DNA from: Kiritimatiellia bacterium | GTDB lineage: Bacteria; Verrucomicrobiota; Kiritimatiellia; JAAZAB01 | Reading direction: 5' to 3' | Length of the DNA stretch: 64,000 nt | Assembly (NCBI GenBank): GCA_028718125.1 | Contig: JAQUMN010000016.1 | Span: forward strand, 12,041-76,040 | Shown here: positions 6,411 through 28,670 of the stretch, piece by piece | Layout of the letters: each line of letters starts with the position of its first letter | Numbering within the stretch: position 1 is the first letter of the stretch | Notes under the pieces: model-generated | Database searches by the model: none | Told to the model about the DNA's origin: nothing | Seen by the model: the letters and a program-made list of their open reading frames with translations, nothing else | Made by a program: the position numbers and the translations under genes

Positions 6411-6429
6411 CTTACGGCAGCGCGATACG

Positions 6430-15035: not shown

Positions 15036-16484
15036 ATGATTATTTCGGCGCCATTTTTCCGGAATTCAGTCTTCGTGCTGGTTGCCCGGCTGACCGAACT
15101 CCTGGCCGGGATTCTCGCGGTCGGATGGGTAACCCGGTACCTGGGCGCCGAGCGCTTTGGCGAATATTCCTTTGTCTGGGCCACGGCCACCGCCCTGGCG
15201 CCGCTGGTGGCGCTGGGCTGCGGGCGAATTCTTATCCGGGACCTTGCGGTGGATGCGGCGCGTACGGGCACGCTGGTGGCCTCCGCGTTGCTGTTGAACG
15301 GAGCCCTGGCGCTGCTGGCCCTGGGCGTCATGTGGGGGATAGTCGGGATCATGCTGCCTTCGCCGCTAGCTCTGCTCGCGGCCACCCTGGCAATCGCGGC
15401 CCAGTCGCTTCTGGTCATGCAGCAAACGGTATCGGCGGTGTTCATTGCCCGCGAGCGCATGATCTATGATCCCTTAATCGTAATCGTCACCCGTGTTCTG
15501 CTGCTGGCGCTTTTGCTGGCCATTATGGCGGCGCACCTGTCGTATCCCTTCCTGTTCCTGGCTAATGGCGTGGCCGGGCTCATCGGTCTGGCCCTGGCGT
15601 CCGGGATCCTGATGCGGCGCTTTGCCCGGCCGGTCTGGGGTGTCCGGCGCGCGGAGCTGGCCTATCTGGCTGCCCAATCGGCGCCGGTGGCGGGTTATAA
15701 TTTTCTGGGCCAGAGCTTCGCTTTCGCCGGCGTCCTGCTCCTGACGCAATTTCAGACGCTGGAACAGGTCTCGTTCTTCCAGGCGCCGCAACGGGTGATC
15801 GCTCCGCTGATGATCCTGCCGATGTCCCTGCTCTTTGCCTTCACGCCGGCCATTGCCCGGCTGGGGGCGGATGCCGGACAGGGCGCTGCCCTGCGGGCGT
15901 TCTATGCGCTGGCGTTGCGGCTGATCCTTGTCGTGGTTTTGCCGGTTTGCCTGCTCATGAGTTGGCTGGCCCCGCAACTGGTGCGCGGGTTGTTTGGGGC
16001 GGACTTCGCCGGCGCCGCACGGTCGTTCGGCATTCTTGGCTGGTCCATTGCGGGCTTTGCGCTGAGCGCCCTCCTGAACACGATCCTGACGTCGCTCAAG
16101 AAACAGAATGGCCTCATCATTACGCACCTGGCGGCCCTGGGGGTCAACCTGGCGATCGGACCATGGCTGGTTATGCGCTACGGCAGCGCGGGGGCCAGCG
16201 CGGCCTTCCTGGTGTCGTTCACTTGCCTTTTTCTGTTCAATCATTACTATCTCGCTGCCCAGATTGGTTCCCTGCCGTTGTGGAGCGCCGTGTGGCGGCC
16301 TTGCCTGGCGACCCTGGGGGCCGGCGGCCTGTGGTGGCTTGGTGCGGACCGCGTGGCGCCGATAGCGCTGATTATTGTGGCAGGCCTGGTCTACGCCGGA
16401 CTGGCCTTGGCCCTGCGCGCCGTCAGCGTGGACGACATCAATCAACTGGTCAATCGCCGCGCGCCGGGCTCCGCGTGTTCTTAA
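15036..16484 (+). CDS. Wzx-like oligosaccharide flippase (MOP/PST superfamily)
   Basis: About 14 TM helices with PST-family architecture. RBS GGAGG. Confidence 0.7.
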   Translation: MIISAPFFRNSVFVLVARLTELLAGILAVGWVTRYLGAERFGEYSFVWATATALAPLVALGCGRILIRDLAVDAARTGTLVASALLLNGALALLALGVMWGIVGIMLPSPLALLAATLAIAAQSLLVMQQTVSAVFIARERMIYDPLIVIVTRVLLLALLLAIMAAHLSYPFLFLANGVAGLIGLALASGILMRRFARPVWGVRRAELAYLAAQSAPVAGYNFLGQSFAFAGVLLLTQFQTLEQVSFFQAPQRVIAPLMILPMSLLFAFTPAIARLGADAGQGAALRAFYALALRLILVVVLPVCLLMSWLAPQLVRGLFGADFAGAARSFGILGWSIAGFALSALLNTILTSLKKQNGLIITHLAALGVNLAIGPWLVMRYGSAGASAAFLVSFTCLFLFNHYYLAAQIGSLPLWSAVWRPCLATLGAGGLWWLGADRVAPIALIIVAGLVYAGLALALRAVSVDDINQLVNRRAPGSACS

Positions 16485-16509
16485 ACGTTCTTAACTCAGG
16501 TCATCAGCC

Positions 16510-17424
16510 ATGATTGCACACCGCAACATAATTAAGGATTTTGGGCGGGTTCTTTTCTGGTACCCGCTCCGATGGATCGTGCTCATTTTGCCTTTCGGGC
16601 TGGTCTACCGGCTGTGCGGGTTGCTTGGGCGGCTGGAATACGCGCTCTCGGGCCGCCGGCAAACCGACCGGATGCGGCAGAATATCGAGCGGGCTTTCGG
16701 TTGCAGCCCCACCAAGGCGGACGCCATTCTCCGGCGCAACGTGGAGAACCACGCCATGAACATGATGGAGTTTCTGAAGTATCCTCAGGTCAATCCGCGC
16801 AACTGCAGCAGCCTGGTCGTGTGGGAGGGCCGTGAACATCTGGACGCCGCCCTGACAAAGGGCCGCGGCGTTGTCCTATGCACCGCGCATTTCGGGGCCA
16901 AACAAATACTGCAGGTGGCGCTGGGCCATGCCGGCTACCGCGTCAACCAGATCAACTACCATCTGGAGGGCGATCGCCTGTCTTTCGTCCAGAAGAATGT
17001 GGCGCAGCGGAACCGCATGCGGATCGAGGCGCGGATTCCCTGCCGGTTCATCTCCGCCGGCAGGTTCCTGCGCGCCGCGTTCAGGTGCCTGCATGCCAAC
17101 GAGATCCTGATCGTCGCGGCCGACGGCGCGGGCCGGAAGGAAAACATGGACGACTCCTTCCATCCGTTTCCTTTCTTGGGCCGGACCATGCTCTTTCCGA
17201 CGAACTATGTCGAACTTGCCCGGCGCACCGGCGCGGTGCTCGCGCCGGTTTTTGCGATACGGGAACAAGCGCATCACCGGATTGTGTTTTTTCCGCCGCT
17301 GGATACGGAGACCGGGGATCCTGTCCGGCAGTATATAGCGCTGCTGGAGCGCCATGTCCGTCAGTATCCCCATCTCTGGGAGTTTTGGGAAGAATTCGAA
17401 GAGGGAGAATTGCTGGTAAATTGA
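16510..17424 (+). CDS. lipid A biosynthesis lauroyl/myristoyl acyltransferase-like (LpxL/HtrB family)
   Basis: N-terminal TM anchor, LPLAT family pattern (CTAHFG HxxxxD-like box), length about 304 aa. Confidence 0.6.
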   Translation: MIAHRNIIKDFGRVLFWYPLRWIVLILPFGLVYRLCGLLGRLEYALSGRRQTDRMRQNIERAFGCSPTKADAILRRNVENHAMNMMEFLKYPQVNPRNCSSLVVWEGREHLDAALTKGRGVVLCTAHFGAKQILQVALGHAGYRVNQINYHLEGDRLSFVQKNVAQRNRMRIEARIPCRFISAGRFLRAAFRCLHANEILIVAADGAGRKENMDDSFHPFPFLGRTMLFPTNYVELARRTGAVLAPVFAIREQAHHRIVFFPPLDTETGDPVRQYIALLERHVRQYPHLWEFWEEFEEGELLVN

Positions 17425-17610
17425 TCAGGGGAATTTTCCGCCAGAGGCGGATCCGCCTACGGCGGACAATCCGTAGCGGTTCTAACCTGCCCGCAGTGCT
17501 ACGCACAGCGTTGCAGGCGGGCCATCATCCGGTGTAGAGGCCGTTCGATAGAACGGCAAAGTCGCCCCACTTCGGGGCCTAATGGTCATAATAAGACGGT
17601 TCTTCAGGCT

Positions 17611-18765
17611 ATGTACAAGATCGTGAACAAGCGGAAATTATGGGCAACGCGCATGGCCGACGGGCTGGGCAAATTGTTTTTTCTGCCGCGGCGCCTGTTT
17701 TTCAAAAGCGAGCCGATTGATCCCGGAAAGGTGCGCAGCATCCTCGTCATCCGCACCGCCTATCTCGGCGATGTGATGATGACGTTGCCGATGCTCAAGC
17801 CTCTGCGGCAGCGGTTCCCTGATGCCACACTTTCTTTTCTCACCTCGGCGGCGGCCGGGCCATTGCTGGAAAACAATCCCGATGTGGATGAAATCATCAC
17901 CTACGACCCGTTCTGGTTTTATCCGTCAAAACCGTGTGATTACGGGGCGTTTATCCGGAGTATGCGCAAGCGGCGCTTCGATCTGGTAATCGAGGCGCGC
18001 GGCGATCTCCGCGAGATCCTGGCCCTGGTTGCGCCGCTCCGGGCAAGGTACAAAGTCAGCTACGGCGTGGGAGGCGGGGGATACCTGCTCACGCATGTTG
18101 TCCCTTATCCGGGGCTGAAGCACAAGGTCGAATACCATCTCGATATCGTCCGCTATCTCGGTTGCGATGTCGGCAAGGAAGTCGAATGGAAACTGAGGCT
18201 GGCGGATGCGGAGCGGGCCGTCGGGCGTCGGCTTCTGGAAACAGCCGGGGTAAAACGTCCCTTTGTCTGTGTTCACCCCGGGGGACGGCTCCCGCTCAAA
18301 CGCTGGGGCGCGAACAAGTTCGCGGCGTTGGGCGACAGGATCGAGCATGATCTTGGCCTTGGGGTTGTCCTGCTCGGCTCGCAGGACGAACAGGAGCTGG
18401 CCGCCCGTGTCAGTGCCGGCATGAACACACGTCAGTGTTGCCTGGCCGGACAACTAAATTTACGGGAAATGGCCGGGGTATTGGCGGAGGCCGCGTTGTT
18501 CATCGGCAACGACAGCGGCCCAATGCATATTGCGACCGCGATGGGCACGCCGACGGTGGCGATTTTCGGTCCATCCAAGTCGGTTGAGACCCGTCCCTAC
18601 GGCGACGCGCACCAGATAGTGGAAAAATCCTTCACCTGTCGGGCCGAATGCGACGAGAGCCACTGCCGCAACAGCGAACGCCAGGCGTGCCTGAAATCCA
18701 TTACGCCGGAAGATGTTCTCAACGCTGCCAGGAGCATCCTCCGCAAGCCCGGAAAAACATCCTGA
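17611..18765 (+). CDS. GT9 family ADP-heptose:LPS heptosyltransferase-like
   Basis: ILVIRTAYLGDVMMTLP is typical of the RfaC/RfaF-type N-terminus; GPMHIATAMGTPTVAIFGP is the C-terminal motif. Confidence 0.75.
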   Translation: MYKIVNKRKLWATRMADGLGKLFFLPRRLFFKSEPIDPGKVRSILVIRTAYLGDVMMTLPMLKPLRQRFPDATLSFLTSAAAGPLLENNPDVDEIITYDPFWFYPSKPCDYGAFIRSMRKRRFDLVIEARGDLREILALVAPLRARYKVSYGVGGGGYLLTHVVPYPGLKHKVEYHLDIVRYLGCDVGKEVEWKLRLADAERAVGRRLLETAGVKRPFVCVHPGGRLPLKRWGANKFAALGDRIEHDLGLGVVLLGSQDEQELAARVSAGMNTRQCCLAGQLNLREMAGVLAEAALFIGNDSGPMHIATAMGTPTVAIFGPSKSVETRPYGDAHQIVEKSFTCRAECDESHCRNSERQACLKSITPEDVLNAARSILRKPGKTS

Positions 18766-18801
18766 TTGTATCGAGTATGGCTGCCGATTTTGATTTTCAG
18801 G

Positions 18802-19851
18802 CTAGACCTGCTGTCGGCGGAGGGGCGGCCTGAGAAGCCCCATGTGTATGTACCACTGGACGGTTTCGCGAATCCCCTGCGCAAGGTCATACACAGGCAG
18901 GTATCCCAGTTCACGGCGGGCCTTGGAGATATCCACGAAGAGGCGGCTTTCGGATAACCAGGCAACCGATTTGCGGGAGAACGGCGGGCGGCCGGTCTGG
19001 GGAATGATGAAAGGATAAAAGGGCAGGACTTTGGCCAGCAGCTCCAGCGTCAAGCCCATGGAACGCGCCAGCGGAACGGGAATATGCGGCTTCCAGGGGC
19101 GCACGCCCAGCTCGGCGGCGATGGCGTCAATGATTTCTTCAATCGCATAGGGCCGCTCGTCCGATATGAAATAAACCTCCCCCGGCCGGCCGCGGTCCGC
19201 CGCGAGACGGATGCCATGGACCTGGTTCTTGACGTAGCAGAACTCGGTTAAGGCCTTGCCGCTTCCGATCAGCGGGTAGAACCCTTTTGCAATGAGCTTG
19301 AACATCCGCGTGAGGAGCAGCATCTCGCGCGGGCCGTAGGTCATGGGAGGGCGCACGACCACCGTCTCGACGCCCTGCTGCGAGTTAAAGGCTCTCACCA
19401 GGTTTTCGGCTTCCAGTTTGGTCCGGCCGTAAATATTCCGGGGATTCTGCGGTGAGTCTTCGGTCAGCGGGCTGCCGTCCCGCGACAGGCCGACCGCCTC
19501 GATCGTTCCGGTAAAGACTACCCGCCGCACACCCGCCGCGGCCGCCGATTCAAGAATATTTTTTGTTCCCTCCACATTCACGGCATGGTATTCTGCTTCA
19601 CAGATTTTGGCATCATGCCGGGAAATGGCGGCGAGGTGATAAACAGTTGCGATGTTCCGCATGGCCGCGCCCAGACAGGCCGGATCCCGAATGTCGCCGG
19701 GAACAATCTCGGCCCCGGATTCTTTCAGATTCGAGAGATTCGAGCCCGGCAGGACGAGGGCGCGGACCGGGAGGCCGTCCGCCGAGAGGGAGGCAACAAG
19801 CTGGCTTCCAATAAAGCCGGCCGCGCCTGTTACCAGGATCGTTGCGTTCAT
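18802..19851 (-). CDS. NAD-dependent epimerase/dehydratase (extended SDR)
   Basis: N-terminal VTGAAGFIGSQL Rossmann motif and YxxxK-type SDR core. Confidence 0.8.
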   Translation of the reverse strand: MNATILVTGAAGFIGSQLVASLSADGLPVRALVLPGSNLSNLKESGAEIVPGDIRDPACLGAAMRNIATVYHLAAISRHDAKICEAEYHAVNVEGTKNILESAAAAGVRRVVFTGTIEAVGLSRDGSPLTEDSPQNPRNIYGRTKLEAENLVRAFNSQQGVETVVVRPPMTYGPREMLLLTRMFKLIAKGFYPLIGSGKALTEFCYVKNQVHGIRLAADRGRPGEVYFISDERPYAIEEIIDAIAAELGVRPWKPHIPVPLARSMGLTLELLAKVLPFYPFIIPQTGRPPFSRKSVAWLSESRLFVDISKARRELGYLPVYDLAQGIRETVQWYIHMGLLRPPLRRQQV

Positions 19852-19907
19852 GGATTAATTCAATCATGGTAGATGCGCTTGTGTCAAGCGCAACGCCGTT
19901 TCTTCGG

Positions 19908-21392
19908 ATGAACGAGCCTACACCTATGAAGATCTGGGTGCTTAATCCGCCTTTTTTGCCGAAGTTCTCGCGGTCGCAACGCAGTCCGGCCGTGACCAAG
20001 AGCGGGACGATGTATTTCCCAATCTGGCTGGCATACTGCGTGGGCGTGCTGGAAGAAGCCGGCCATGAAGTCATATTTACGGATGCGCCCGCGCGCGGTC
20101 TCACCCACGATGAAATCTTCGCAATGGCCGGGCAGATCCAGCCGCGGCTGATCGTGATGGATACCTCCACGCCAAGCATTGCGAATGACCTGCGCGTGGC
20201 GGAAGGTTTGAAAAAGCACGCGCCCGGGGCATTCATCACCCTGGTCGGCACCCACGTATCGGCGCTTGCGGAAGAGACCCTGCGCGCAAGCGAATCCGTG
20301 GATGCCATTGCGCGTCGGGAGTACGAGCATACTATCCGCGAATTGGCCGCCCTCCTTTCCCGGTCCGGCGCGGGGTTGCAACCGCAACTGGACGTCTTGA
20401 GGGGGTTGTCCTTCAGGAGCAATGGCAACATCGTCCACAACGCAGATCGGCCGCACATTGAAAATCTGGACGAGCTTCCCTGGGTAAGCCGGGTCTACAA
20501 GAAGCATCTCCGGATCGCCGACTATTTCAATGCAAATGCGCTCTACCCCATGGTCACGTTGATTTCCGGTCGCGGGTGCCCCTTCCGCTGCAGTTTCTGC
20601 GTGTATCCGCAGACCCTGACGGGCAGGCGCTACCGGTTCCGCAGCATCAGCGATGTGGTTGACGAAATGGAATACGTGATTCGGGAATTTCCCGAGGCCA
20701 GGTCGGTCTTCTTCGAAGACGACACCCTCACGGCAAACAGGAAGCGTTGTCTCGAGCTGGCCGATGCGATCATTGTGCGCGGCGTGAAGATTCCCTGGGA
20801 AGCCAATGCGCGCGCCGATCTGGACCTCGCCACCATGCGGAAATTGAGAGCCGCAGGCTGCCGGGAGCTATGCGTCGGATTTGAAAGCGGGAACCAGACA
20901 TCGCTGACCGGCATGCGCAAGGGCATCGAGATCGAACAGATGTTCCAGTTCATGCGCGACGCGCGGACGGCCGGGGTGCTCGTGCACGGCTGTTTCATGT
21001 TCGGATTCCCCGGTGAGACGCGGGCGAGCATCCTGAACACGATCGCCTTGGCTGTGAGGTTGAAACCCGACACCGCGCAATTCTACCCGGTGATGGTTTA
21101 CCCCGGAACGGAGGCCTACGTAGAATACCGCGTCAAAGGCTGGCTCACGGCCGATTCATACGCCGGCTGGCTGACGCCGGAAGGGCTGCACAACTGCGTG
21201 GTGAAAAACGAGCATTTGTCCTCCAGGGAATTAGTGCAGCTTGCCGACCACGCGCGGCGCAGCTTCTATCTGCGGCCGACATACGTTGTCGGTAAAATGC
21301 TCCAGGCCCTGAAAGAACCGGGGGAGTTCCGCCGGACGGCGCGAGCCGCCTCCGTCTTTTTCAAGCACCTGGCGCGAGGCTCACGGGTCTAA
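19908..21392 (+). CDS. cobalamin (B12)-binding radical SAM enzyme (paralog of 12755..14050)
   Basis: ISGRGCPFRCSFCVYPQ radical SAM cluster. The N-terminal B12-binding-like region aligns with the first B12-rSAM. Alternative start 19926. Confidence 0.75.
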   Translation: MNEPTPMKIWVLNPPFLPKFSRSQRSPAVTKSGTMYFPIWLAYCVGVLEEAGHEVIFTDAPARGLTHDEIFAMAGQIQPRLIVMDTSTPSIANDLRVAEGLKKHAPGAFITLVGTHVSALAEETLRASESVDAIARREYEHTIRELAALLSRSGAGLQPQLDVLRGLSFRSNGNIVHNADRPHIENLDELPWVSRVYKKHLRIADYFNANALYPMVTLISGRGCPFRCSFCVYPQTLTGRRYRFRSISDVVDEMEYVIREFPEARSVFFEDDTLTANRKRCLELADAIIVRGVKIPWEANARADLDLATMRKLRAAGCRELCVGFESGNQTSLTGMRKGIEIEQMFQFMRDARTAGVLVHGCFMFGFPGETRASILNTIALAVRLKPDTAQFYPVMVYPGTEAYVEYRVKGWLTADSYAGWLTPEGLHNCVVKNEHLSSRELVQLADHARRSFYLRPTYVVGKMLQALKEPGEFRRTARAASVFFKHLARGSRV

Positions 21393-21565: not shown

Positions 21566-24010
21566 TCAGTACGCGCCCTTGCCGCGCAGGACGATGGGAA
21601 TCGTCTTGAGTAAAATGGTCAGATCGAGCAGCAGGGATTGATTCTTGATGTAGTAGAAATCGTACTCCAGGCTTTCATGCAAGGGCAGGTCTTTCCTGCC
21701 CATGATCTGCCAAAGTCCGGTCAGTCCCGGCTTGACTTTCAGCCGCTGGCGTTCCCAGCTCTTGTATTTTTCCACAATGAACGGCATTTCCGGCCGGGGA
21801 CCCACCAGGCTCATTTCCCCCTTGAGAACATTGATCAATTGAGGGAATTCGTCGAGGCTGGTTTTCCTCAGGAACTTGCCGACCTTGGTAATGCGGGGGT
21901 CGCCCGGGGCGGACGGCGAGTAATCGAACTGGGGAACATTGGAATGCATTGTGCGGAATTTGAAGATCCTGAAAATCCTGCCGTTCTTTCCCACCCGTTC
22001 CTGCCTGAACACGGCCGACCCATGGCTCTCCAGCCTGATCGCGATCGTGATAACGATCCAGATGGGCAGCGTAACAACCAGTATGAAAGCAGAGGCGGTA
22101 ATATCCAGCAGCCGCTTGACGGCCATGGAGAGCAATTCGGCCGGTTCGTTTTTGAGATAGGTGATCGGAAGACTGTTTTCCTCGAACATGTCAACTTCGC
22201 CCGCGATCATGTCGAATATGCTGGATACGATGTGAAAATGGACACCGCGCCGACCGCCGTGGCGATCCAGAATATCGATCAGCTCGTCCTGCGGCAGGAA
22301 GGGCAGGGACACGAACACGTCGGTAACCTTGAATTGTTCAATAAGCTTCCCGAGATCAGCGAGCGACCCCACGATTTCGTGCCCGTCAATTTTCCGGCCA
22401 ACCTCATCCGGCGCCTGGCTCACAAAACCCACAATGTCACTGGCCAGCGCCGACGTGTTTTCGAGTTTGCGCGCGATCAGCATGGCCAGCTCCCCCGTTC
22501 CGGCGATCATGACGCGGGGTGTGGGCTCTCCGCCGGTAACGCGCACATAGTGAGCGTAGAGCTTGCGTGCGCACGACCTGAGGATCGCGGTAAAAACCCA
22601 GAGGTAGAAACAAAGCAGGACCAGGATCAGGCGCGAGTGCGGGCTCTTTGTGAGGTAAAGGACGGCCATGAACATGATGCCGATATAGGTCACGGCCTTG
22701 GTCAGCACCACGAATTCAGTGACTTCCGAGAATGTCCGTGCGGGCTTGTAGAGCCCGGAAACGAAGAACACGGCGAGGATCAGCACGAAAGCGATGGGTA
22801 CAAACTGAAGATACATGTCGATGGGGAAATCGGGCGCGTGAAACACGCGATCGAGGATATAGCCCCAGGTGGCATGCGCGGCAATCAGCGCACAGCAAAT
22901 CGCAAGAACATCGCCGAGCAGGATCAAAAAGACCTGGCTGAAACGGCCCTGGCGCATCCAACGCGGCAGCAGACTCCAAAGGATACCCAGGCCCATCGCC
23001 AGCCCGCGGGCAAACAGCATGAAAGGCGAAACCAGGAGCAGGAACAGTCCTTTCATCGGCGGCTGGCGAGTTAACGCCATGAAAAGCGGTATGGCGCTCA
23101 AAATGAAAAGCGCCAGGCAGATATATAAAAATATTTGGTACTTCCCAAAATACAGCCAGACGGCCAGCGCGGCGAGTATCATGAACGACAGCAAAATCTG
23201 GAGTTTGAGGGTTTGGGGAGTGTATGAGTCGGACTTGATTTTTTCAGGATAAGTCCGGTAAACCGCCATCCGCCAGAATGCGCGGCCAAATTTCTGCTTG
23301 AGATATTTAAAGATTGTGGCGGGATGGCGATGGTAAACCGCGGCGGCCGGGTTGAATACCAGTTTGTAGCCTTTTGAGGCCAGGCGGTATGAAAAATCAA
23401 CGTCTTCATTGTTGGCTTCAGGGAATGAGGTGTCAAAGCCTCCCAGCGAGGCAAAAACAGTCTTCTTGAATGCCGCAGAATACGTGTCGATAAAATCAAC
23501 ATACTTCAATTTCCGCATCTTCCTGTAGCGGCCTTCGAATTCCATCTGCGCGAAGCGCGCAACAACGCTCTCCTGCCGTGTCCGGTACACGCCTTTTACG
23601 CCGGTTATTTCCGTGCTTGTATCCGAAAAGGGGCGGCACATCTCCTGCAGCCAGTTCGTCGCCGGCTCGCAGTCGGCATCCGTAAAAACCAGGATTTGTC
23701 CCTCGGCTTCCCTGGCCCCGTGATTTCGCGCCGATGCCGGGCCCTGGTTCGTCTGCCGAAAATACCGGATTATGGGGGATCCGCTTCGAGCGGCGTATTG
23801 GCGCACTACCTCGGGCGTAGTGTCGGTTGATCCGTCGTCGACAACGATCACTTCGTAGCGATCGGCGGGGAAGTCTTGAGATACGAGCGCATTCAGGCAG
23901 GCGGGCAAAGTATCAGCGCCGTTGTATGCGGGAACAACAACCGACGCGTAGATGGCAGTGTTTGAGGCGGCCTTATCAGGTTGGCTTTCTTTCCCGTCAG
24001 GAACATTCAT
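21566..24010 (-). CDS. fusion protein: N-terminal GT2 glycosyltransferase + TM region + WbaP/WcaJ-type polyprenyl-phosphate hexose-1-phosphate transferase (bacterial sugar transferase domain)
   Basis: GT2: VVVPAYNGADT ... VVDDGSTD ... TDAD. C-terminus: full PGPT catalytic domain (LVGPRPE ... GLTGLWQI ... DLTILLKT) preceded by a Rossmann/CoA-binding-like segment. Start taken at ATG 24010 (MNVPDG). Confidence 0.7.
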   Translation of the reverse strand: MNVPDGKESQPDKAASNTAIYASVVVPAYNGADTLPACLNALVSQDFPADRYEVIVVDDGSTDTTPEVVRQYAARSGSPIIRYFRQTNQGPASARNHGAREAEGQILVFTDADCEPATNWLQEMCRPFSDTSTEITGVKGVYRTRQESVVARFAQMEFEGRYRKMRKLKYVDFIDTYSAAFKKTVFASLGGFDTSFPEANNEDVDFSYRLASKGYKLVFNPAAAVYHRHPATIFKYLKQKFGRAFWRMAVYRTYPEKIKSDSYTPQTLKLQILLSFMILAALAVWLYFGKYQIFLYICLALFILSAIPLFMALTRQPPMKGLFLLLVSPFMLFARGLAMGLGILWSLLPRWMRQGRFSQVFLILLGDVLAICCALIAAHATWGYILDRVFHAPDFPIDMYLQFVPIAFVLILAVFFVSGLYKPARTFSEVTEFVVLTKAVTYIGIMFMAVLYLTKSPHSRLILVLLCFYLWVFTAILRSCARKLYAHYVRVTGGEPTPRVMIAGTGELAMLIARKLENTSALASDIVGFVSQAPDEVGRKIDGHEIVGSLADLGKLIEQFKVTDVFVSLPFLPQDELIDILDRHGGRRGVHFHIVSSIFDMIAGEVDMFEENSLPITYLKNEPAELLSMAVKRLLDITASAFILVVTLPIWIVITIAIRLESHGSAVFRQERVGKNGRIFRIFKFRTMHSNVPQFDYSPSAPGDPRITKVGKFLRKTSLDEFPQLINVLKGEMSLVGPRPEMPFIVEKYKSWERQRLKVKPGLTGLWQIMGRKDLPLHESLEYDFYYIKNQSLLLDLTILLKTIPIVLRGKGAY

Positions 24011-24292
24011 TATGACCAGCCTCCGGATAATATCAATCTCACTAATGAAATTGTATAAGGCACTTGGCCTGAATTTGCAAGTGAAGATTGTCCGGGAGAA
24101 CACGCGTGGTCGCTTTCTTCCTTGACCTCCAAATCCCCCCCGCGTATTTTGCATACCTATGACCAGGCCCGCAACCTTTACCCGCTCAGGGCGGTGCCAG
24201 GCTCATCGCCGAACTCGTGCGTCCTCTTTTTCACGTTGTTCCCGTAGCCGGGGCAGAGGACAATCGGTAATTTTGGCGCAACGGGGTATTTC

Positions 24293-26215
24293 ATGAACTG
24301 GATCTTCTGGTTGAGCCTCAATCTTTTCCTTGTCTATGTTAATGCGAAATTTTTCGCCAGAATTTATCCCCAGCACGGGGTGCCCTATCAGATGGCGCTT
24401 CTGTCAAGCACGGCCCATGCCCTGTTCTTGACGTGCGTGCTGGCCATCTTGCGCGACAAACTTCGCAATTGGGTCAAGCCGGGTTCATGGAAAGAGAGCG
24501 CCTTTTACGTTATTGTCGGGCTATTGGCTGCCGCGTATGTCATTAACTCAGCCATTTACTGCATCTTCGGGTTTGATCTTCCGTTAATCTTGAGCTACTT
24601 CCGGACGGGTGGCGCTACGGAAATTGTTGCTGTTCTGGCGGCAGCCAAAATATCGTCTAATAACACCGCCCTGATCGTGGGATTCATCCTTGCTTTGCCT
24701 TTCGGCCTCTGGTTCTATGCCGTCATCAGCGCAAGGCTTTCCCGCGGCTTTTTCAGGAGCGGAAGCGGGCGGTGTTTGGGGAAAGTGGCGGCGATTATTG
24801 CTTTGGCGGCTTTCCTGGTAATTCCCCTGGAACAAAAGCTAAGCTACAAATACAAGGAGCAGGAAACCTGGCAAAAGGAGCAAAATGCAAGCCTCCTCTA
24901 TTTCCCGTTCTATCAGCCCAAAAACATTCAGCCGTTGGTCCCGGTCCGTATTCTTCCTTATAACCGCATGGATACCCGCGCAGCCCAGGCGCGGTCCGGG
25001 CAAGCGGCTGTTCCCGAGGAAGCAAATGTTTTCCTGATCGTGGCCGAAACCATGCGCTTAAGCTTCATGCAACCGGAGATTGCGCCCAATTTAGCGGCGT
25101 TTGATCTCGAGAATTTGTCGTTTACGCACACTTTGACATCGGCGAACAGCACCCATTACTCCTGGTTTTCCATTTATTATTCGAGCTATCCGTTTTATTG
25201 GAATGCCCAGCGACATCTTCCGGATCAATTAGGTTCGCCGGCGCTGATCGCATTCAAGAATGCCGGGTTTAAAATCCACGTCTTCACGACGGAAGCCAAT
25301 CAAAAGTACCTCGGCTCAGAGACCCTTTATTACGGTGAAAACGGCCGGTTAATTGATGATGTTTACGCCGATCCCTCCGCATACCCGCCGGAAAGCGATC
25401 AGCACGTAATTGACAATTTGCGCGGGCTTTTCAAAACGGGCGCGCCTCCGGGCCGAAATCTCTACGTCATCCACCTGGAGAGCACGCATCACAATTACTT
25501 CTTCACGAAAGAATATAAGCACAAGTTTCAACCCATTGTTACCGACTTCGACTATTTCAAGGTTAACTACTCGTCGGAGTATGTTTTGGGAATGCGGAAT
25601 CGGTACAAAAACTCCCTGGCTTACCTCGACTCTGTTTTTGGTGAATTAATCGGAACATTGAAGGCGGCCGGGATTTACGAGGCGGCAATCATTGGCTTCA
25701 CAGGGGACCACGGCGAAGAATTCATGGAGCACGGCACCCTGACCCACGGCAGCAACCTGTTCGCGCCGCAAACGGAAGTGCCGATTATTTTCCGGATTCC
25801 GGGAAAACGCGGCCAGAAAATTGATCGCGTGGTGGCCGGTATGGATATGCTTCCCACCCTGTTGGATGCTGTAGGGCTCTATGATCCGGTAAGGCCCTTC
25901 CTTTTTGGCAGGTCGGCCCTGAGAGCTCCGGAGCCCGATGCGGGGCAGGGCTGCGTTTTGCTTACAAACGGGCGGGGCGACTTGGTTCCAAAACAGTTCG
26001 CTCTTTTTAACGGCCGCTACAAAATATGCTTTGAACTGGAGGGCTCTAATCCAATGGCCGCAAAATTCATAAGGTTTACCTGGCTTTACGATGATCAGGA
26101 TCGGAAGTTCATTCCAGGTGAAGGCCGGCGTTCAGACTACCTGGCGTTTATACGCAAGGAGTTTGCCGAAGGGATCCGGGGCATAAAATTCATGGAGTTG
26201 GTCGGAGGGATTTAA
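24293..26215 (+). CDS. membrane-anchored sulfatase-superfamily transferase (LtaS/EptA/OpgB-like phosphoethanolamine or phosphoglycerol transferase)
   Basis: N-terminal 5-TM domain plus C-terminal alkaline-phosphatase-superfamily domain (FTGDHGEEF, HxxY region). Confidence 0.65.
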   Translation: MNWIFWLSLNLFLVYVNAKFFARIYPQHGVPYQMALLSSTAHALFLTCVLAILRDKLRNWVKPGSWKESAFYVIVGLLAAAYVINSAIYCIFGFDLPLILSYFRTGGATEIVAVLAAAKISSNNTALIVGFILALPFGLWFYAVISARLSRGFFRSGSGRCLGKVAAIIALAAFLVIPLEQKLSYKYKEQETWQKEQNASLLYFPFYQPKNIQPLVPVRILPYNRMDTRAAQARSGQAAVPEEANVFLIVAETMRLSFMQPEIAPNLAAFDLENLSFTHTLTSANSTHYSWFSIYYSSYPFYWNAQRHLPDQLGSPALIAFKNAGFKIHVFTTEANQKYLGSETLYYGENGRLIDDVYADPSAYPPESDQHVIDNLRGLFKTGAPPGRNLYVIHLESTHHNYFFTKEYKHKFQPIVTDFDYFKVNYSSEYVLGMRNRYKNSLAYLDSVFGELIGTLKAAGIYEAAIIGFTGDHGEEFMEHGTLTHGSNLFAPQTEVPIIFRIPGKRGQKIDRVVAGMDMLPTLLDAVGLYDPVRPFLFGRSALRAPEPDAGQGCVLLTNGRGDLVPKQFALFNGRYKICFELEGSNPMAAKFIRFTWLYDDQDRKFIPGEGRRSDYLAFIRKEFAEGIRGIKFMELVGGI

Positions 26216-26247
26216 AATGCTTGTGCGCTTCTGTTTCCCGGCCGCAT

Positions 26248-27297
26248 TTATAGCTCGGCGCCGGAAGCCAGTTTCAAGCCCGCTTTGCGCACGATTGACC
26301 GTAAATAATCGTCCTGAGGTGTAATCCGCTTCGTAGAATATATCGGAAACAGGCGCTTGAAATGCGCCGGGGTTCCGTCGTGGACCGTGACCGTATTAGC
26401 GCCAGCCATCAATCCCAGGTATTGCCCGCCTCGGCGGGCTTTTTCCAGCGAACTGGTTGTGGGAATCATCCGGTCGGGATACATGATCCGCATCAGCGCC
26501 ATCATGTTCAATGTCAGGTCAAGATCGCCCATCGGTGCAGCAGCGCATTTAGTTTTTTCACCCGGAATGAAGACCGAACAACTCTGCGTGACCAACTTGT
26601 ACTTCCCCAGCAGGTACAGATCGTTGACCAGGTCGTCAGTGGTCTGTCCCGGCAAACCTACCATATTGCCGCTGCCCACCTCGAAACCGGCGCGCAGGAG
26701 GCTTGCGATGCATCCCAGGCGGTGCGCCAGCGTATCGCGCGGCTTTAATTTGCGGTAAAGCTTGGCATTGGAGGTCTCGAACTTCAGAATGTACCATGCC
26801 GCTCCGGCCGCATGCAGTTGCCGGTATTGCGCCGTCTTCATGTTGCCGAGGCAGAGGATGATCTTGAGATCGCGGTGACGCGGCGTCAATGCTTTCAGGC
26901 AGCCGCAGACGTGGTTCACGAAAGTCTTTGAGTCGTTTTCACCCGATTGGATCAGCAGGACCCGCCGCTTCTTGTTATATATGTGATCGGCCAGCGCCAG
27001 GAACTCGGCATGCGTGATCACATAATGTGACTGGCCAATGCGTCCGATGCTGCAAAAATTACACCGCTGATGGCAGATGTTTGAAATCTCAATCACACTG
27101 CGCATTTGGACCGCACGGCTGGGGAAATGCTCTTCACGCCTTTGCCGTGCCAGGGCAAAAAGTTGCCGCTGGGCCGGCCCGCGGAAGGCCAGGGCCTGCG
27201 TCAGCGTTTCCCGACTGTAATCGCCCGTATTAAGTTTCCGAATCAGCATGCACTGCCCGACAATTTGTTCTATGGGACGATGCTTAATTAAATGCAT
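26248..27297 (-). CDS. radical SAM protein (BioB/HydE/ThiH-like)
   Basis: CHQRCNFC cluster near the N-terminus; about 349 aa. Confidence 0.65.
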   Translation of the reverse strand: MHLIKHRPIEQIVGQCMLIRKLNTGDYSRETLTQALAFRGPAQRQLFALARQRREEHFPSRAVQMRSVIEISNICHQRCNFCSIGRIGQSHYVITHAEFLALADHIYNKKRRVLLIQSGENDSKTFVNHVCGCLKALTPRHRDLKIILCLGNMKTAQYRQLHAAGAAWYILKFETSNAKLYRKLKPRDTLAHRLGCIASLLRAGFEVGSGNMVGLPGQTTDDLVNDLYLLGKYKLVTQSCSVFIPGEKTKCAAAPMGDLDLTLNMMALMRIMYPDRMIPTTSSLEKARRGGQYLGLMAGANTVTVHDGTPAHFKRLFPIYSTKRITPQDDYLRSIVRKAGLKLASGAEL

Positions 27298-27320
27298 AGG
27301 AATTTCAATCCGCCTTTGTT

Positions 27321-27381
27321 GTCATTCCGAGCGTAGCGAGGAATCTCGCCGCGAGAGATCCTTCACTGCGTTCAGGATGAC
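27321..27381. repeat. 27-nt-arm inverted repeat (GTCATTCCGAGCGTAGCGAGGAATCTC / GAGATCCTTCACTGCGTTCAGGATGAC), small palindromic element
   Basis: Arms pair 27/27 in the +-strand RNA if G-U wobbles are allowed (3 A/C mismatches in the - strand sense). 7-nt loop. Confidence 0.6.
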
Positions 27382-27395
27382 AATTCGAACAGAAT

Positions 27396-27426
27396 AAAAA
27401 TCGCCCCGCCCTGCGGGGCTTAGTTT
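27396..27426. terminator. candidate bidirectional rho-independent terminator
   Basis: AAAAA-GCCCCGC-CCT-GCGGGGC-TTAGTTT: 7-bp GC stem flanked by an A-run on one side and T-rich sequence on the other. Confidence 0.45.
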
Positions 27427-27723
27427 AAATTGATCGCCCTCCCAAAAAACGCAAAAGTTAACCAGACCACGCCATATTTTCCAAGCGAAAACAATTTTAA
27501 CCTGAATCTTTGAAAAAGAATAGTTCATAAATCCATACCTGTCAATCCTTAACTAAAGAGCTGTGGCGGGAAAATTTTCCGGTTCGTTATACGGGCTTGA
27601 CGCAACGGGACGCGGCCAGCGGTGCGAACGGTCCATCGCCAATATTTTCACGTGCAGGCTTGAGCCAAAACTAATGTGAAATTGTAATGTAAAAATCGTG
27701 AAAAAGCCAGTGCCCGGCTTGGC

Positions 27724-27733
27724 GGGGGGGGGG
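27724..27733. repeat. homopolymeric G10 tract in intergenic region
   Basis: cttggcGGGGGGGGGGagaggg. Confidence 0.8.
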
Positions 27734-27845
27734 AGAGGGCGCAACGAGCGTGTCTTGCGCAACTGCATTCACAAAGATACTTGGGCCGCCTAGTATGTTG
27801 CCGGAACCAATGCGGGGGAGTTGCTGCGGCATGTCGATGGATATG

Positions 27846-28670
27846 TTAAGAGCGATGCTTGCGGTGGATTTTTTTCAGCAGTCCCGGTGTGATTTCTTTG
27901 CCCCGGTATAACACATTATTAAGGAATTTACGCCGCGAAATCCCCCATTTCTTTCGAAAGTAGGCCTTGGAATCAATCAATTCTTTATCGTCATATCTGG
28001 ACACGGTCTTGCGCGCAAAGTGATAAACCAGGCTTGTGCCCACGCCAATAAACAGACTACAGCCATAATTGTACATTTTCATGGCCAAATCAGGATCACT
28101 TCCAAATCCCGGGAAGTAATTTTCGTCGAAACCGCCAATGGCATCCCAATTAGATTTTGGGATTACCGACGGCGTCCAGGTGCTGAACATATTATACGGG
28201 CGCTTGAGCTTCCGGTAATCGCGCAGGAGATCATCTTCACGAAAGTTCTGGGGCGAGGTGCCGTAATCGCAGAACCCTATCGCACATGGATTGGCCTTTC
28301 CCGGCTCAACAGGCGTGCTTGAAATCCAGATTTTGTCGCTTATCTCCAGATATGGTTGAAGCGCCATATCCCAGCCGGGCAGCGGATACATATCGTCGTT
28401 CATGTAGCAAATGTAGTCTGTCGTCGCCAGTTTCGCCGCGCGGTTAACTGCGGCGCAAACGCCGAGATTTACAAGCGAAGAATCGGAAATAACCGCCTTG
28501 CCGGCGACCCACTTTTCCGCTTCCTCCCCATATTCATTGAAAAACACGATGATTTCATGCTCAATCGTGCTGTTAAGCTTCACCCCTTTGTAGACTAGAT
28601 CCAGTAATGCAATATTCTTCCAGGAAGGAATGATTACGGAAAATTGCTTCATTGTTGTTGATCTTGACAT
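27846..28670 (-). CDS. GT2 family glycosyltransferase
   Basis: FSVIIPSWKN ... DDDMYPLPGW-type GT-A features. Lower GC than neighbours. Confidence 0.6.
   Translation of the reverse strand: MSRSTTMKQFSVIIPSWKNIALLDLVYKGVKLNSTIEHEIIVFFNEYGEEAEKWVAGKAVISDSSLVNLGVCAAVNRAAKLATTDYICYMNDDMYPLPGWDMALQPYLEISDKIWISSTPVEPGKANPCAIGFCDYGTSPQNFREDDLLRDYRKLKRPYNMFSTWTPSVIPKSNWDAIGGFDENYFPGFGSDPDLAMKMYNYGCSLFIGVGTSLVYHFARKTVSRYDDKELIDSKAYFRKKWGISRRKFLNNVLYRGKEITPGLLKKIHRKHRS

What the first reader, a model, noticed from the sequence alone, without database searches (positions are those of the whole stretch)
21566..24010. GT2 glycosyltransferase fused in frame to a WbaP/WcaJ-type initiating phosphoglycosyltransferase
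A single 814-aa ORF begins with a complete GT-A/GT2 domain, crosses several TM helices and ends with the full 'bacterial sugar transferase' catalytic domain. Initiating PGPTs are normally stand-alone. This fusion would couple the priming step to the second sugar addition on the same polypeptide.
Basis: seen in the sequence. Interest (0 to 1): 0.55.

Follow-up and report, generated by a model that had tools for sequence, protein, structure and literature searches.

The report
GT2–phosphoglycosyl transferase fusion enzyme (BiPGT)
One real, conserved 814-residue membrane protein joins a family-2 glycosyltransferase to a complete WbaP-type enzyme that starts lipid-linked glycan synthesis; such fusions are a published class, so it is a new member, not a new kind.

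Summary
A single uninterrupted minus-strand ORF (24010→21566, 814 aa, GGAGG Shine-Dalgarno 9 nt upstream) encodes four parts in order. These are a GT-A/GT2 catalytic domain, a three-helix membrane domain, a complete large monotopic phosphoglycosyl transferase (four-helix bundle plus PF13727 domain), and a re-entrant helix with the PF02397 catalytic core. All catalytic motifs of both enzymes are intact.

It is not an assembly artefact. The identical protein is in NCBI from a Kiritimatiellae MAG, an 84%-identical 814-aa copy comes from another metagenome, and more than 100 further clusters from several phyla share the fusion.

Glycosyltransferase–PGT fusions ("bifunctional monoPGTs") are already a published class, so novelty is modest.

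New here is that the GT2+3-helix module is an evolutionary unit of its own. It is usually free-standing (103 of the 150 best representatives). It typically sits directly after an HpnJ-like B12-radical-SAM gene in a conserved, uncharacterised cassette: LpxL-like acyltransferase, GT9, DUF362, rSAM, GT2. The window carries that cassette without the DUF362 gene, with the GT2 inverted and fused to the locus's only PGT.

The most likely function is that the PGT makes Und-PP-hexose and the GT2 adds a β-linked sugar to it. This is inferred, not shown. Membrane topology is unresolved because the helix count is odd.

The parts
21566..24010 (-). Whole CDS of the GT2-large-PGT fusion (814 aa plus stop at 21566-21568)
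   Evidence: Identical to NCBI protein P0001 from a Kiritimatiellae MAG.
24020..24024 (-). Shine-Dalgarno GGAGG, 9 nt before the ATG at 24010
   Evidence: Read directly from the sequence. Supports the 814-aa start over the 862-aa ORF.
23315..23950 (-). GT-A/GT2 catalytic domain (residues about 21-232). Motifs: D59 (VVDDGS), D111xD113 (FTDADC), E202-D203 (NNEDVD, general base), H227xH229
   Evidence: Pfam PF00535/PF13641. The motifs are invariant in 45 fusion homologues, and D59, D111, D113, D203 and H227 are also invariant in 103 free-standing modules, with E202 and H229 at 102/103. D203 aligns with the second Asp of the PcManGT 'GADD' motif, named as catalytic base Asp223. AF2 pLDDT is above 90.
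23210..23314 (-). Juxtamembrane interface helices (residues 233-267) with K240, R243, W246 (KFxRAYW) and D261-x-x-T264-P265 (SDSYTPQ)
   Evidence: AF2 helices H233-253 and H257-260. K240, W246, D261, T264 and P265 are invariant in alignment A1 and R243 is 44/45. Amphipathic: hydrophobic moment 0.26 against 0.09-0.17 for the TM helices.
22970..23209 (-). Three-helix membrane domain of the GT2 module (helices about 268-288, 293-314, 318-347). The third carries S328-P329, invariant R335 and G342
   Evidence: Hydropathy, AF2, conservation. Foldseek aligns about 340 columns to PcManGT 6yv7, TM-score 0.62 on the target. PcManGT has three antiparallel TM helices.
22535..22963 (-). Four-helix transmembrane bundle of the large PGT (residues about 350-492)
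   Evidence: TIGR03025 full-length match. The profile aligns to WbaP chains from residue 6. AF2 helices H350-388, H404-417, H429-454, H460-492.
22211..22534 (-). PF13727 ('CoA_binding_3') Rossmann-like domain of large PGTs (residues about 493-600)
   Evidence: Pfam 7.1e-11. AF2 shows alternating strand/helix from 499 to 595.
22028..22135 (-). Re-entrant membrane helix of the monoPGT core (residues 626-661; K632, D636, P649)
   Evidence: Aligned to the WbaP helix. P649 is conserved 44/45 and K632 45/45.
21569..22027 (-). monoPGT catalytic domain (residues 662-814). Motifs: K684-F-R686-T-M, Asp-Glu dyad D720-E721 (LDEFPQL), G737-P-R-P-E
   Evidence: PF02397 at 1.5e-66. Residue-by-residue alignment to WbaP; E. 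coli WbaP 30us at 3.5e-45 and PglC 8e37 at 3.5e-41. Foldseek to PglC gives TM-score 0.79 on the target.
19926..21392 (+). Neighbour: HpnJ-like B12-binding radical SAM (488 aa), convergent with the fusion gene. Functionally linked partner of the GT2 module
   Evidence: TIGR03471 HpnJ 1e-119 but below cut-off (400.6 against 577.6 bits). Orthologues at 45-67% identity sit next to the GT2 module in L001, L004, L005 and L086-L091. P0188 is this rSAM (59% identity, 597 bits) fused to the GT2 module.
17611..18765 (+). Neighbour: GT9 (heptosyltransferase-like), a cassette member
   Evidence: PF01075. TIGR02201 at 169.1 bits against a cut-off of 170.2. Orthologues at 47-54% identity in L088-L091.
16510..17424 (+). 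Neighbour: LpxL-like acyltransferase (PF03279), a cassette member
   Evidence: Orthologues at 25-53% identity in L088-L091.
15036..16484 (+). Neighbour: Wzx-type flippase (PF01943)
   Evidence: 39% identical orthologue in L089.
24293..26215 (+). Neighbour: membrane-anchored sulfatase/alkaline-phosphatase-superfamily protein (LtaS/EptA/YejM-like), divergent from the fusion gene
   Evidence: PF00884. Weak EptA/LtaS/YejM hits. Four N-terminal hydrophobic segments. A 636-aa counterpart lies directly after the fusion in L001 and L086.

Best explanation
The gene encodes a bifunctional monotopic phosphoglycosyl transferase (BiPGT). It serves a Wzx/Wzy-type glycan locus in which it is the only PGT.

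Step 1 is inferred from full family membership and intact catalytic residues. The C-terminal large monoPGT transfers a hexose-1-phosphate from a UDP-hexose to undecaprenyl phosphate at the cytoplasmic face, giving Und-PP-hexose plus UMP through the Asp720-Glu721 dyad.

Step 2 is inferred. The N-terminal inverting GT-A/GT2 (DXD metal site D111/D113, general base D203) is held at the membrane by its interface helices and three-helix 'half-tunnel'. It adds a beta-linked sugar from an NDP-sugar to a hydroxyl of that lipid-linked sugar, most simply as the second sugar of the repeat unit. The product of step 1 would then be handed over within one polypeptide.

Step 3 is inferred from gene fusion and gene order elsewhere. 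The adjacent HpnJ-like B12-radical-SAM enzyme then modifies the lipid-linked sugar. Further transferases (GT9, other GT2s, the LpxL-like acyltransferase), Wzx and a Wzy_C-like protein complete and export the glycan.

In evolutionary terms the fusion is a minority state: a normally free-standing GT2+3-helix module has captured the initiating PGT.
For: Architecture and integrity:
-, as described under the observation check.
- GT2 motifs D59, D111xD113, E202-D203 and H227xH229 are invariant in 45 fusions. In 103 free modules E202 and H229 are 102/103 and the others 103/103.
- D203 aligns with the PcManGT general base.
- PGT motifs KFRTM, LDEFPQL and GPRPE align residue by residue with WbaP.
- AF2 model: pLDDT 83.5, pTM 0.70. 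Foldseek top hits are WbaP 8t53 (1.2e-17), PcManGT 6yv7 (5.5e-14) and PglC (1e-12).

Reality of the fusion:
- Identical NCBI protein, an 84%-identical 814-aa copy, and more than 100 clusters carrying PF00535 plus PF02397. Sources name Kiritimatiellae, Desulfobacterota-type, CSSED10-310, Verrucomicrobiota and Planctomycetota; L011 is Caldilineales.
- The module is fused to large PGTs, small PGTs, and in P0157 to PF03706 plus a small PGT.
- A rough tree gives about 19 architecture changes among 221 modules, against 99 +/- 3.7 for shuffled labels.

Hydroxyl acceptor on a lipid-linked glycan:
- Homology through the acceptor half of the domain extends to PcManGT, PglI (Und-PP-glycan glucosyltransferase, residues 22-231) and AglG.
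- Homology to ArnC, DPMS and GtrB stops at about residues 104-117.

Role in a Wzx/Wzy pathway:
- It is the only PGT in the 64-kb window, alongside Wzx and a weak Wzy_C-like hit.
- L001 has Wza, Wzz/kinase and the fusion; L004 has a flippase, Wzy_C, GTs and the fusion.
- The free module in L006 lies between a Wzx-like flippase, a multi-TM Wzy-like protein (by inspection; not HMM-tested) and a Wza-like export protein.

rSAM link.
Against: - No biochemistry exists. The sugar specificity of either domain is not assignable: WcaJ 339 bits and WbaP 299 bits are both below cut-off.
- The GT2 module is usually free-standing: 103 of the top 150 representatives.
- In six loci with a free module, no PGT lies within the 7-10 kb flanks. 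Direct coupling to a PGT is therefore not obligatory, and the GT2 might act at a later step.
- Six of 45 fusion homologues have lost the PGT Asp-Glu dyad and the KFRT motif while keeping every GT2 motif. The PGT half can evidently be dispensable or serve only as a scaffold.
- Topology is unresolved. There are three hydrophobic helices between two domains that must both be cytoplasmic. The segments before helix 1, between helices 2 and 3, and after helix 3 all carry net positive charge. AF2 nevertheless predicts helix 3 as one straight 30-residue helix.
Confidence: 0.5

Rival explanations
1. Both domains are active and in the same pathway, but the GT2 is not the second-step enzyme. It acts later on the Und-PP-linked oligosaccharide, or on another lipid-linked acceptor belonging to the rSAM/GT9/LpxL-like cassette. 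The fusion would then only co-localise pathway members at the membrane.
For: - The module is most often free-standing and abuts the rSAM gene rather than a PGT.
- It is also found fused to GT4, Wzy_C, PF03706 and the rSAM. That suggests generic pathway co-localisation rather than a fixed step order.
- Cassette neighbours are LPS-type enzymes, PF03279 and GT9.
Against: - Repeated fusion specifically to PGTs of two size classes.
- O-antigen-type loci commonly keep their initiating PGT elsewhere (established knowledge), so the absence of a nearby PGT is weak evidence.
Confidence: 0.25
2. The GT2 module is a polyprenyl-phosphate glycosyltransferase of the ArnC/GtrB/DPMS type and makes Und-P-sugar. 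The two domains are then fused because they share the Und-P substrate, not because they act in sequence. The Und-P-sugar, perhaps after rSAM modification, would be flipped and used by periplasmic GT-C enzymes to decorate LPS or the glycan.
For: - GT2 plus juxtamembrane helices plus a C-terminal TM domain is also the ArnC/GtrB/DPMS layout (own knowledge).
- Fusions to PF03706, an MprF/HpnL-like flippase-type TM domain.
- The window has a weak PMT_2-like GT-C hit and two multi-TM ORFs without Pfam hits.
- The PGT dyad is dispensable in some homologues.
- From memory, PcManGT activity was reported as dolichyl-phosphate-dependent.
Against: - Sequence homology to ArnC, DPMS and GtrB covers only the nucleotide-binding half, to about residues 104-117. 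None of them is in the top 50 Foldseek hits.
- The general-base pair E202-D203 is essentially invariant across 148 sequences (one E-to-D change). A general base is needed for a hydroxyl acceptor, not for a phosphate acceptor.
- Extra Pfam hits are to the cellulose-synthase/GT21-like models PF13641, PF13632 and PF13506.
Confidence: 0.12
3. The GT2 module is a processive, synthase-type polymerase (like cellulose, PNAG or hyaluronan synthases) primed by the PGT product.
For: - Foldseek hits to hyaluronan synthases (409-561 aligned columns) and BcsA.
- NCBIfam PgaC hit over residues 13-305 at 1.9e-27.
- MftF, the best NCBIfam hit, builds short beta-glucan chains (own knowledge).
Against: - There is no QxxRW motif. 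The equivalent helix reads K240-F-x-R243-A-Y/F-W246.
- Only three helices are present, which is too few for a translocation channel.
- TM-scores to the synthases are low, 0.39-0.46.
- The loci carry Wzx, Wzy, Wza and Wzz, which is the repeat-unit pathway.
Confidence: 0.05
4. Artefact: two adjacent genes were merged by a sequencing or assembly error, or the contig is chimeric.
For: The source is a MAG. Nothing else supports this.
Against: - The ORF is continuous.
- An 84%-identical protein of identical length comes from a different metagenome, and more than 100 independent clusters carry the same fusion, some on contigs up to 2.16 Mb.
- The junction helices are conserved, with R335 and G342 invariant in A1.
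Confidence: 0.01

Closest known systems
Bifunctional monotopic PGTs (BiPGTs): O'Toole, Imperiali and Allen 2021 (PNAS 118:e2018289118; not held here, cited through PMC10942596 and PMC11626204)
   Same: A monoPGT catalytic core fused on one polypeptide to another pathway enzyme. Glycosyltransferases are explicitly listed as N- or C-terminal partners. Such proteins are already being purified: S. muelleri BiPGT1, Limnohabitans BiPGT2 and a Myxococcales 'GT1'.
   Different: Here the partner is a membrane-embedded GT2 with its own three-helix domain. It is attached to the N-terminus of a complete large PGT (four-helix bundle plus PF13727), so the protein is both 'Lg' and 'Bi'. No function or structure is published for this architecture in the papers I could read. 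Whether it was among the 2021 network's fusion clusters could not be checked.
WbaP / WcaJ large monoPGTs (PDB 8t53, 30us)
   Same: Residues 366-814 match the whole TIGR03025 model. The four TM helices, PF13727 domain, re-entrant helix, KFRTM, Asp-Glu dyad and PRP motifs are all present.
   Different: - Scores are below the equivalog cut-offs for WcaJ (339 against 410.75) and WbaP (299.5 against 403), so the sugar is unassigned.
- A loop of about 15 residues after KFRTM is shorter.
- There is a 350-residue N-terminal GT2 module.
PcManGT, the Pyrobaculum calidifontis membrane mannosyltransferase (PDB 6yv7-6yv9), described as a 'minimal cellulose-synthase-like fold'
   Same: It is the best solved match for the N-terminal module: 24% identity, about 340 aligned columns, TM-score 0.62 on the target. 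It has a GT-A domain plus three antiparallel TM helices, and the general-base Asp aligns.
   Different: It is archaeal, free-standing and uses GDP-mannose. The order and topology of its helices relative to the catalytic domain could not be compared because no coordinates or primary paper were available.
Neisseria PglB (PGT-acetyltransferase), the classic bifunctional monoPGT
   Same: A PGT fused to an enzyme of the same pathway (one search lists it as a bifunctional monoPGT).
   Different: Its partner is a soluble acetyltransferase that acts before the PGT step, on a small PGT core. Here the partner is a membrane GT acting after the PGT step, on a large PGT.
Hopanoid side-chain genes HpnI (GT2) / HpnK / HpnJ (B12-rSAM) / HpnL (PF03706-type, own knowledge) / HpnA
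   Same: A membrane GT2 is genetically coupled to an HpnJ-like B12-rSAM. There is an HpnA-like epimerase next door, and PF03706 partners appear in relatives. HpnJ is proposed to contract a lipid-linked glucosamine ring.
   Different: - The rSAM is below the HpnJ cut-off (400.6 against 577.6 bits).
- The GT2 module gives no HpnI hit at E<=1e-6 and only 42.7 bits to HpnB.
- No squalene-hopene cyclase was seen among the ORFs annotated in the window.
- The lipid here is presumably undecaprenyl-linked.

Membership tests
Monotopic PGT superfamily (PF02397, 'bacterial sugar transferase') | Full-length match to the catalytic-core HMM above the curated threshold | tested here: met
   PF02397 at 223.8 bits against 27, model positions 1-178 of 179.
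Monotopic PGT superfamily (PF02397, 'bacterial sugar transferase') | Catalytic Asp-Glu dyad and the KFRTM / PRP motifs | tested here: met
   D720-E721 (LDEFPQL), K684-F-R686-T-M and G737-P-R-P-E align with the same residues of WbaP.
Monotopic PGT superfamily (PF02397, 'bacterial sugar transferase') | Re-entrant membrane helix with a helix-breaking Pro, preceded by basic residues | tested here: inconclusive
   Hydrophobic helix 626-661 with K632/R633 and P649 (44/45 conserved), aligned to the WbaP helix. AF2 draws one continuous helix. Re-entrant geometry could not be inspected without coordinates.
Monotopic PGT superfamily (PF02397, 'bacterial sugar transferase') | Phosphosugar transfer to polyprenyl phosphate with UMP release | not testable with these tools
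   Needs an enzyme assay.
Large monoPGT (WbaP/WcaJ type) | N-terminal four-helix TM bundle plus PF13727 domain before the catalytic core | tested here: met
   TIGR03025 model 2-445 of 445, 397 bits against 295.55. PF13727 at 7.1e-11. Four helices at 350-492. The profile aligns to WbaP from residue 6.
WcaJ (Glc-1-P) or WbaP (Gal-1-P) equivalog | Score above the NCBIfam equivalog/subfamily cut-off | tested here: not met
   TIGR03023 at 339.4 against 410.75; TIGR03022 at 299.5 against 403. The sugar specificity remains open.
GT2 (inverting GT-A glycosyltransferases) | PF00535 above threshold and a GT-A fold | tested here: met
   126.5 bits against 23.3. AF2 pLDDT above 90 across the domain. Foldseek hits to many GT2 structures at probability 1.00.
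GT2 (inverting GT-A glycosyltransferases) | DXD metal-binding motif and general-base Asp/Glu | tested here: met
   D111-A-D113 and E202-D203 are invariant in 45 fusion homologues; in 103 free modules D111, D113 and D203 are invariant and E202 is 102/103. D203 aligns with the PcManGT base.
Bifunctional monoPGT (BiPGT) | monoPGT core and a second catalytic domain of the same pathway on one polypeptide, conserved across genomes | tested here: met
   class definition.
Bifunctional monoPGT (BiPGT) | Both activities demonstrated | not testable with these tools
   Needs biochemistry.
Processive membrane GT2 synthases (BcsA/HAS/PgaC/NodC) | QxxRW motif in the interface helix | tested here: not met
   The helix reads K240-F-x-R243-A-(Y/F)-W246. 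Position 239 is Q in only 2 of 45 sequences.
Processive membrane GT2 synthases (BcsA/HAS/PgaC/NodC) | TM channel of six or more helices around the acceptor site | tested here: not met
   The module owns only three helices, and the free-standing forms end after the third.
Polyprenyl-phosphate GT2s (ArnC/GtrB/DPMS) | Homology across the whole catalytic domain, including the acceptor half | tested here: not met
   Profile matches to ArnC, DPMS and GtrB (sll0501) end at about query positions 104-113. The NCBIfam ArnC hit covers 22-154 only, at 47.4 against 529 bits.
Hopanoid HpnI/HpnJ system | rSAM above the HpnJ equivalog cut-off and GT2 matching HpnI | tested here: not met
   HpnJ 400.6 against 577.6 bits. 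No HpnI hit at E<=1e-6 for the GT2 module.

The most novel reading that the evidence does not exclude
The fusion is the PGT-capturing variant of a widespread, undescribed glycolipid or glycan cassette: LpxL-like acyltransferase, GT9, DUF362, HpnJ-like B12-radical-SAM and a GT2+3-helix module. In this reading the radical-SAM enzyme rearranges or alkylates the sugar that the GT2 has just placed on a polyprenyl-linked intermediate. One possibility is ring contraction to a carbocyclic or cyclitol sugar, as proposed for HpnJ on hopanoids. That would be a new class of lipid-linked sugar modification feeding a surface polysaccharide or LPS.
Probability: 0.2. Interest if true: 0.65.

Novelty: new member of a known kind. 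Interest (0 to 1): 0.33.

Why it matters
As a fusion it mainly confirms a known theme: enzymes of lipid-linked glycan assembly are repeatedly welded to the initiating PGT.

Its practical value is as a Rosetta stone. It ties an otherwise orphan, very common membrane GT2 module (1,556 50%-identity representatives at E<=1e-30) and its conserved radical-SAM partner (more than 5,600 90%-identity clusters at E<=1e-60) to undecaprenyl-phosphate-based glycan initiation. That gives a testable entry point into an uncharacterised cassette found in several bacterial phyla. A single polypeptide carrying steps 1 and 2 would also be a convenient system for studying substrate hand-over between membrane glycan-assembly enzymes.

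Tried and rejected
- The primary SSN paper (PMC7848588) and the BST review (PMC9206117) are not held. The claim that GT fusions are a known class rests on later papers that cite them, plus my memory of the abstract.
- The genome-contig scan was dominated by plain PGTs, because one search pattern was the generic GxMSLVGPRP motif. Several apparent full-length hits (L007, L019, L023, L026, L034, L046, L065, L067, L068, L084) have an unrelated or only weakly similar GT2 (<=82 bits) and were not counted as family members.
- I considered the 862-aa start at 24154 and rejected it: there is an SD before 24010, homologues begin near residue 20, and NCBI aa.
- Frameshift or chimera was rejected.
- Membership of the hopanoid pathway was rejected.
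- The promoter/terminator scan was uninformative.
- A literature search for the cassette found nothing.
- I tried to settle the membrane topology with charge and hydrophobic-moment statistics. The result is a contradiction, not an answer.
- The tree is UPGMA on p-distances from a biased sample. The count of about 19 transitions is only a rough estimate of how often the architecture has changed.


Full report
**1. Observation**

The ORF is real and lies on the minus strand. The ORF listing reports 21566..24154 (-), 862 aa from the farthest ATG. That ATG has a GGAGG nine nucleotides upstream. It is also the start of the identical database protein P0001, annotated by NCBI as 'MAG: exopolysaccharide biosynthesis polyprenyl glycosylphosphotransferase [Kiritimatiellae bacterium]'.

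Pfam finds:
- PF00535 at residues 23-178 (1.3e-36)
- PF13641 at 23-241
- PF13727 at 418-582
- PF02397 at 632-808, covering the whole model (1.5e-66)

NCBIfam TIGR03025 covers 2-445 of 445 model positions over residues 366-814, above its cut-off. The C-terminal 450 residues are therefore a complete large monoPGT of the WbaP/WcaJ type, not just a catalytic core.

**2. Not an artefact**

- An 84%-identical protein of exactly 814 aa comes from a different (JGI) metagenome.
- More than 100 further 90%-identity clusters carry both PF00535 and PF02397, some on contigs up to 2.16 Mb.
- Source names include Kiritimatiellae, Desulfobacterota-type, CSSED10-310, Verrucomicrobiota and Planctomycetota. A Caldilineales MAG also carries the fusion (L011).
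- Three size classes share the same N-terminal module. The first is about 750-815 aa, like this one. The second is about 930-1017 aa, with an Arg-rich insertion of roughly 150 residues between the second and third module helices. The third is about 525-560 aa, where the module is joined directly to a small PGT core.

**3. Anatomy and integrity**

An alignment of 45 full-length homologues (A1) shows invariant GT2 residues: D59, D111xD113, E202-D203, H227xH229, K240, W246, D261, T264, P265 and R335.

D203 aligns with the second Asp of the 'GADD' motif of PcManGT. That residue is named as the general base, Asp223, in PMC12595478.

The PGT half aligns residue by residue with WbaP, including KFRTM, the LDEFPQL Asp-Glu dyad and GPRPE.

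AlphaFold2 with A1 gave pLDDT 83.5 and pTM 0.70. Foldseek against the PDB returns:
- WbaP 8t53 (1.2e-17)
- PcManGT 6yv7 (5.5e-14, about 340 aligned columns, TM-score 0.62 on the target)
- PglC (TM-score 0.79 on the target)
- then chondroitin polymerase and hyaluronan synthases with low TM-scores

PcManGT is a membrane GT2 with three antiparallel TM helices. From memory of its primary paper, which I could not read here, those helices were likened to half of the BcsA tunnel and proposed to hold a dolichyl-phosphate-linked acceptor.

**4. What is already known**

[quoted passage not shown] Both cite O'Toole et al. 2021. A 2025 preprint already purifies several BiPGTs.

The kind is therefore known.

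**5. The GT2+3-helix module is its own unit**

An exhaustive phmmer search with residues 1-350 found 1,556 representatives at E<=1e-30. Of the 150 best, 103 are free-standing proteins of 300-450 aa that match through all three helices. Sixteen are 490-720 aa and 18 are 745-1000 aa.

Pfam on the odd sizes shows the module fused to:
- small PGT (P0133)
- PF03706, an MprF/HpnL-like TM domain (P0142, P0170)
- PF03706 plus small PGT (P0157)
- GT4 (P0177, P0187)
- Wzy_C (P0151)
- a B12-radical SAM (P0188)

A rough UPGMA/Fitch analysis gives about 19 architecture changes among 221 modules, against 99 +/- 3.7 for shuffled labels. Architecture is clade-structured but has changed repeatedly. The window's module is closest to the insertion-bearing large class (55-59% identity). 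The closest free module is 51% identical.

**6. Conserved cassette**

The gene convergent with the fusion (19926-21392) is an HpnJ-like B12-rSAM. It matches TIGR03471 at 1e-119 over the full length but below the cut-off.

- Orthologues lie next to the module in L001/L086, L004, L087 and L005.
- P0188's N-terminal half is 59% identical to it over 491 residues.
- Starting from the rSAM (more than 5,600 clusters at E<=1e-60, nearly all about 490 aa), four of four long-contig contexts show the same order: PF03279 acyltransferase, GT9, DUF362, rSAM, then a free GT2 of 314-351 aa.
- Identities to the window genes are GT9 47-54%, rSAM 66-67%, and module 46-49% over residues about 20-348.

The window has Wzx, the LpxL-like gene, GT9 and the rSAM in the same order. 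An HpnA-like epimerase sits on the other strand where DUF362 would be. The GT2 is inverted and fused to the PGT.

The whole of 1-28.7 kb is a glycan locus. It contains:
- an rSAM-SPASM protein
- a polysaccharide deacetylase
- a methyltransferase
- weak Wzy_C-like and PMT_2-like hits
- two multi-TM ORFs without Pfam hits
- a DegT aminotransferase
- a second B12-rSAM
- additional GT2s
- a sulfatase-like membrane protein
- a HydE-like rSAM

The fusion is the only PGT in the 64 kb.

**7. Mechanism**

Membership of both enzyme families, with intact catalytic residues, is shown. The rest is inferred: the PGT makes Und-PP-hexose, and the inverting GT2 adds a beta-linked sugar to a hydroxyl of the lipid-linked sugar, most simply the second sugar.

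Support for a hydroxyl acceptor on a lipid-linked glycan:
- The general base is essentially invariant.
- Homology through the acceptor half extends to PcManGT, PglI and AglG.
- Homology to ArnC, DPMS and GtrB stops after the nucleotide-binding half.

Against a processive synthase:
- There is no QxxRW motif.
- The module has only three helices.
- The loci carry Wzx/Wzy/Wza/Wzz machinery.

Against strict step 1 to step 2 coupling:
- Free modules have no PGT within 7-10 kb in six loci.
- Six of 45 fusion homologues have lost the PGT Asp-Glu dyad and KFRT motif while keeping all GT2 motifs.

**8. Unresolved: topology**

Both catalytic domains need cytoplasmic nucleotide sugars. By homology to WbaP, the first bundle helix starts in the cytoplasm. 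Yet three uniformly hydrophobic, non-amphipathic helices lie between them.

Net charge is positive in three places (K+R / D+E figures are for the 103 free modules):
- before helix 1 (+1.6 net in the fusions; 3.26 / 1.44)
- between helices 2 and 3 (+0.6 net in the fusions; 1.82 / 0.80); this is also where the Arg-rich insertion of the large class sits
- after helix 3 (+2.2 net in the fusions; 3.48 / 1.25 in the C-terminal tails of the free modules)

This predicts that helix 3 (S328-P329, invariant R335, G342) does not fully span the membrane. AF2 nevertheless draws it as one straight 30-residue helix with high confidence.

**9. Verdict**

This is a new member of a known kind (BiPGT). Its added value is as a Rosetta stone for a common, uncharacterised GT2/radical-SAM cassette. 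The sugar specificities, the step order and the radical-SAM chemistry all remain to be determined experimentally.

Noticed in passing
window 15036-21392 with 21566-24010; loci L088-L091 (about 300-9500): A conserved cassette: (Wzx), PF03279 LpxL-like acyltransferase, GT9, DUF362, HpnJ-like B12-rSAM, then a free-standing GT2+3-helix protein. It appeared in 4 of 4 rSAM-centred contexts, with 46-67% identity to the window's GT9, rSAM and GT2 module and 25-53% to the LpxL-like gene. The rSAM and GT2 genes abut or overlap. No description was found in the literature.
   Followed up: partly
P0188 (842 aa), P0142/P0170, P0157, P0177/P0187, P0151: The GT2+3-helix module is a promiscuous fusion partner. 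It is joined to the B12-rSAM (59% identical to the window's rSAM), to a PF03706 MprF/HpnL-like TM domain, to PF03706 plus a small PGT, to GT4 and to Wzy_C.
   Followed up: partly
Homologues P0064, P0069, P0079, P0082, P0097, P0107 (alignment A1, columns of D720/E721): Six of 45 fusion homologues have lost the PGT Asp-Glu dyad and the KFRT motif (three more have Glu-Glu), while every GT2 motif stays invariant. These are possibly pseudo-PGT scaffolds. The window protein is intact.
   Followed up: partly
window 22970-23209 (residues 268-347): Topology parity problem. There are three hydrophobic helices between two domains that must both be cytoplasmic, and the third helix has positive charge on both sides. 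It carries an S-P pair and an invariant mid-helix Arg335.
   Followed up: partly
P0003, P0005, P0015 and other homologues of about 930-1017 aa: An Arg-rich insertion of roughly 150 residues, predicted amphipathic, lies between module helices 2 and 3 in the closest relatives of the window protein. It is absent from the window protein and from P0002.
   Followed up: no
window 6-857, 12755-14050, 19926-21392, 26248-27297: Four radical-SAM genes sit in one glycan locus: a SPASM type, two B12-binding types and a HydE-like type. That is an unusual density of radical chemistry for a polysaccharide cluster.
   Followed up: no
window 24293-26215; L001 12482-14392; L086 11518-13428: A membrane-anchored sulfatase/alkaline-phosphatase-superfamily protein of about 640 aa (weak EptA/LtaS/YejM similarity) sits directly beside the fusion gene in distant relatives as well. 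PF01663 phosphodiesterase-family genes recur in L001, L003, L086, L087 and L089.
   Followed up: partly
window 14192-15460 (-) versus 14234-15013 (+): The 422-aa minus-strand ORF has no domain hit and no hydrophobic segment. The overlapping 259-aa plus-strand ORF is a GT2 (PF00535, 1.2e-19). The longer ORF is probably a shadow ORF.
   Followed up: yes
window 4827-11275: Four consecutive membrane-protein ORFs: a weak Wzy_C-like hit, a weak PMT_2-like GT-C hit, and two multi-TM ORFs (562 and 543 aa) with no Pfam hit. These are candidate polymerase, ligase or GT-C enzymes of the locus.
   Followed up: no
window 24001-36000: G+C drops to 0.48-0.56 from about 0.60 on either side. The low-GC stretch covers the sulfatase-like gene, the HydE-like rSAM, a GT2, a PAS hybrid histidine kinase, an unknown secreted protein and a sigma-54 activator. 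Type III glutamine synthetase, NAD synthase and glutamate synthase follow.
   Followed up: no
L005 8576-9993: The rSAM gene upstream of the free-standing GT2 module is split into two ORFs around a masked (N/X) stretch. This is probably a masking or assembly gap rather than a pseudogene.
   Followed up: no
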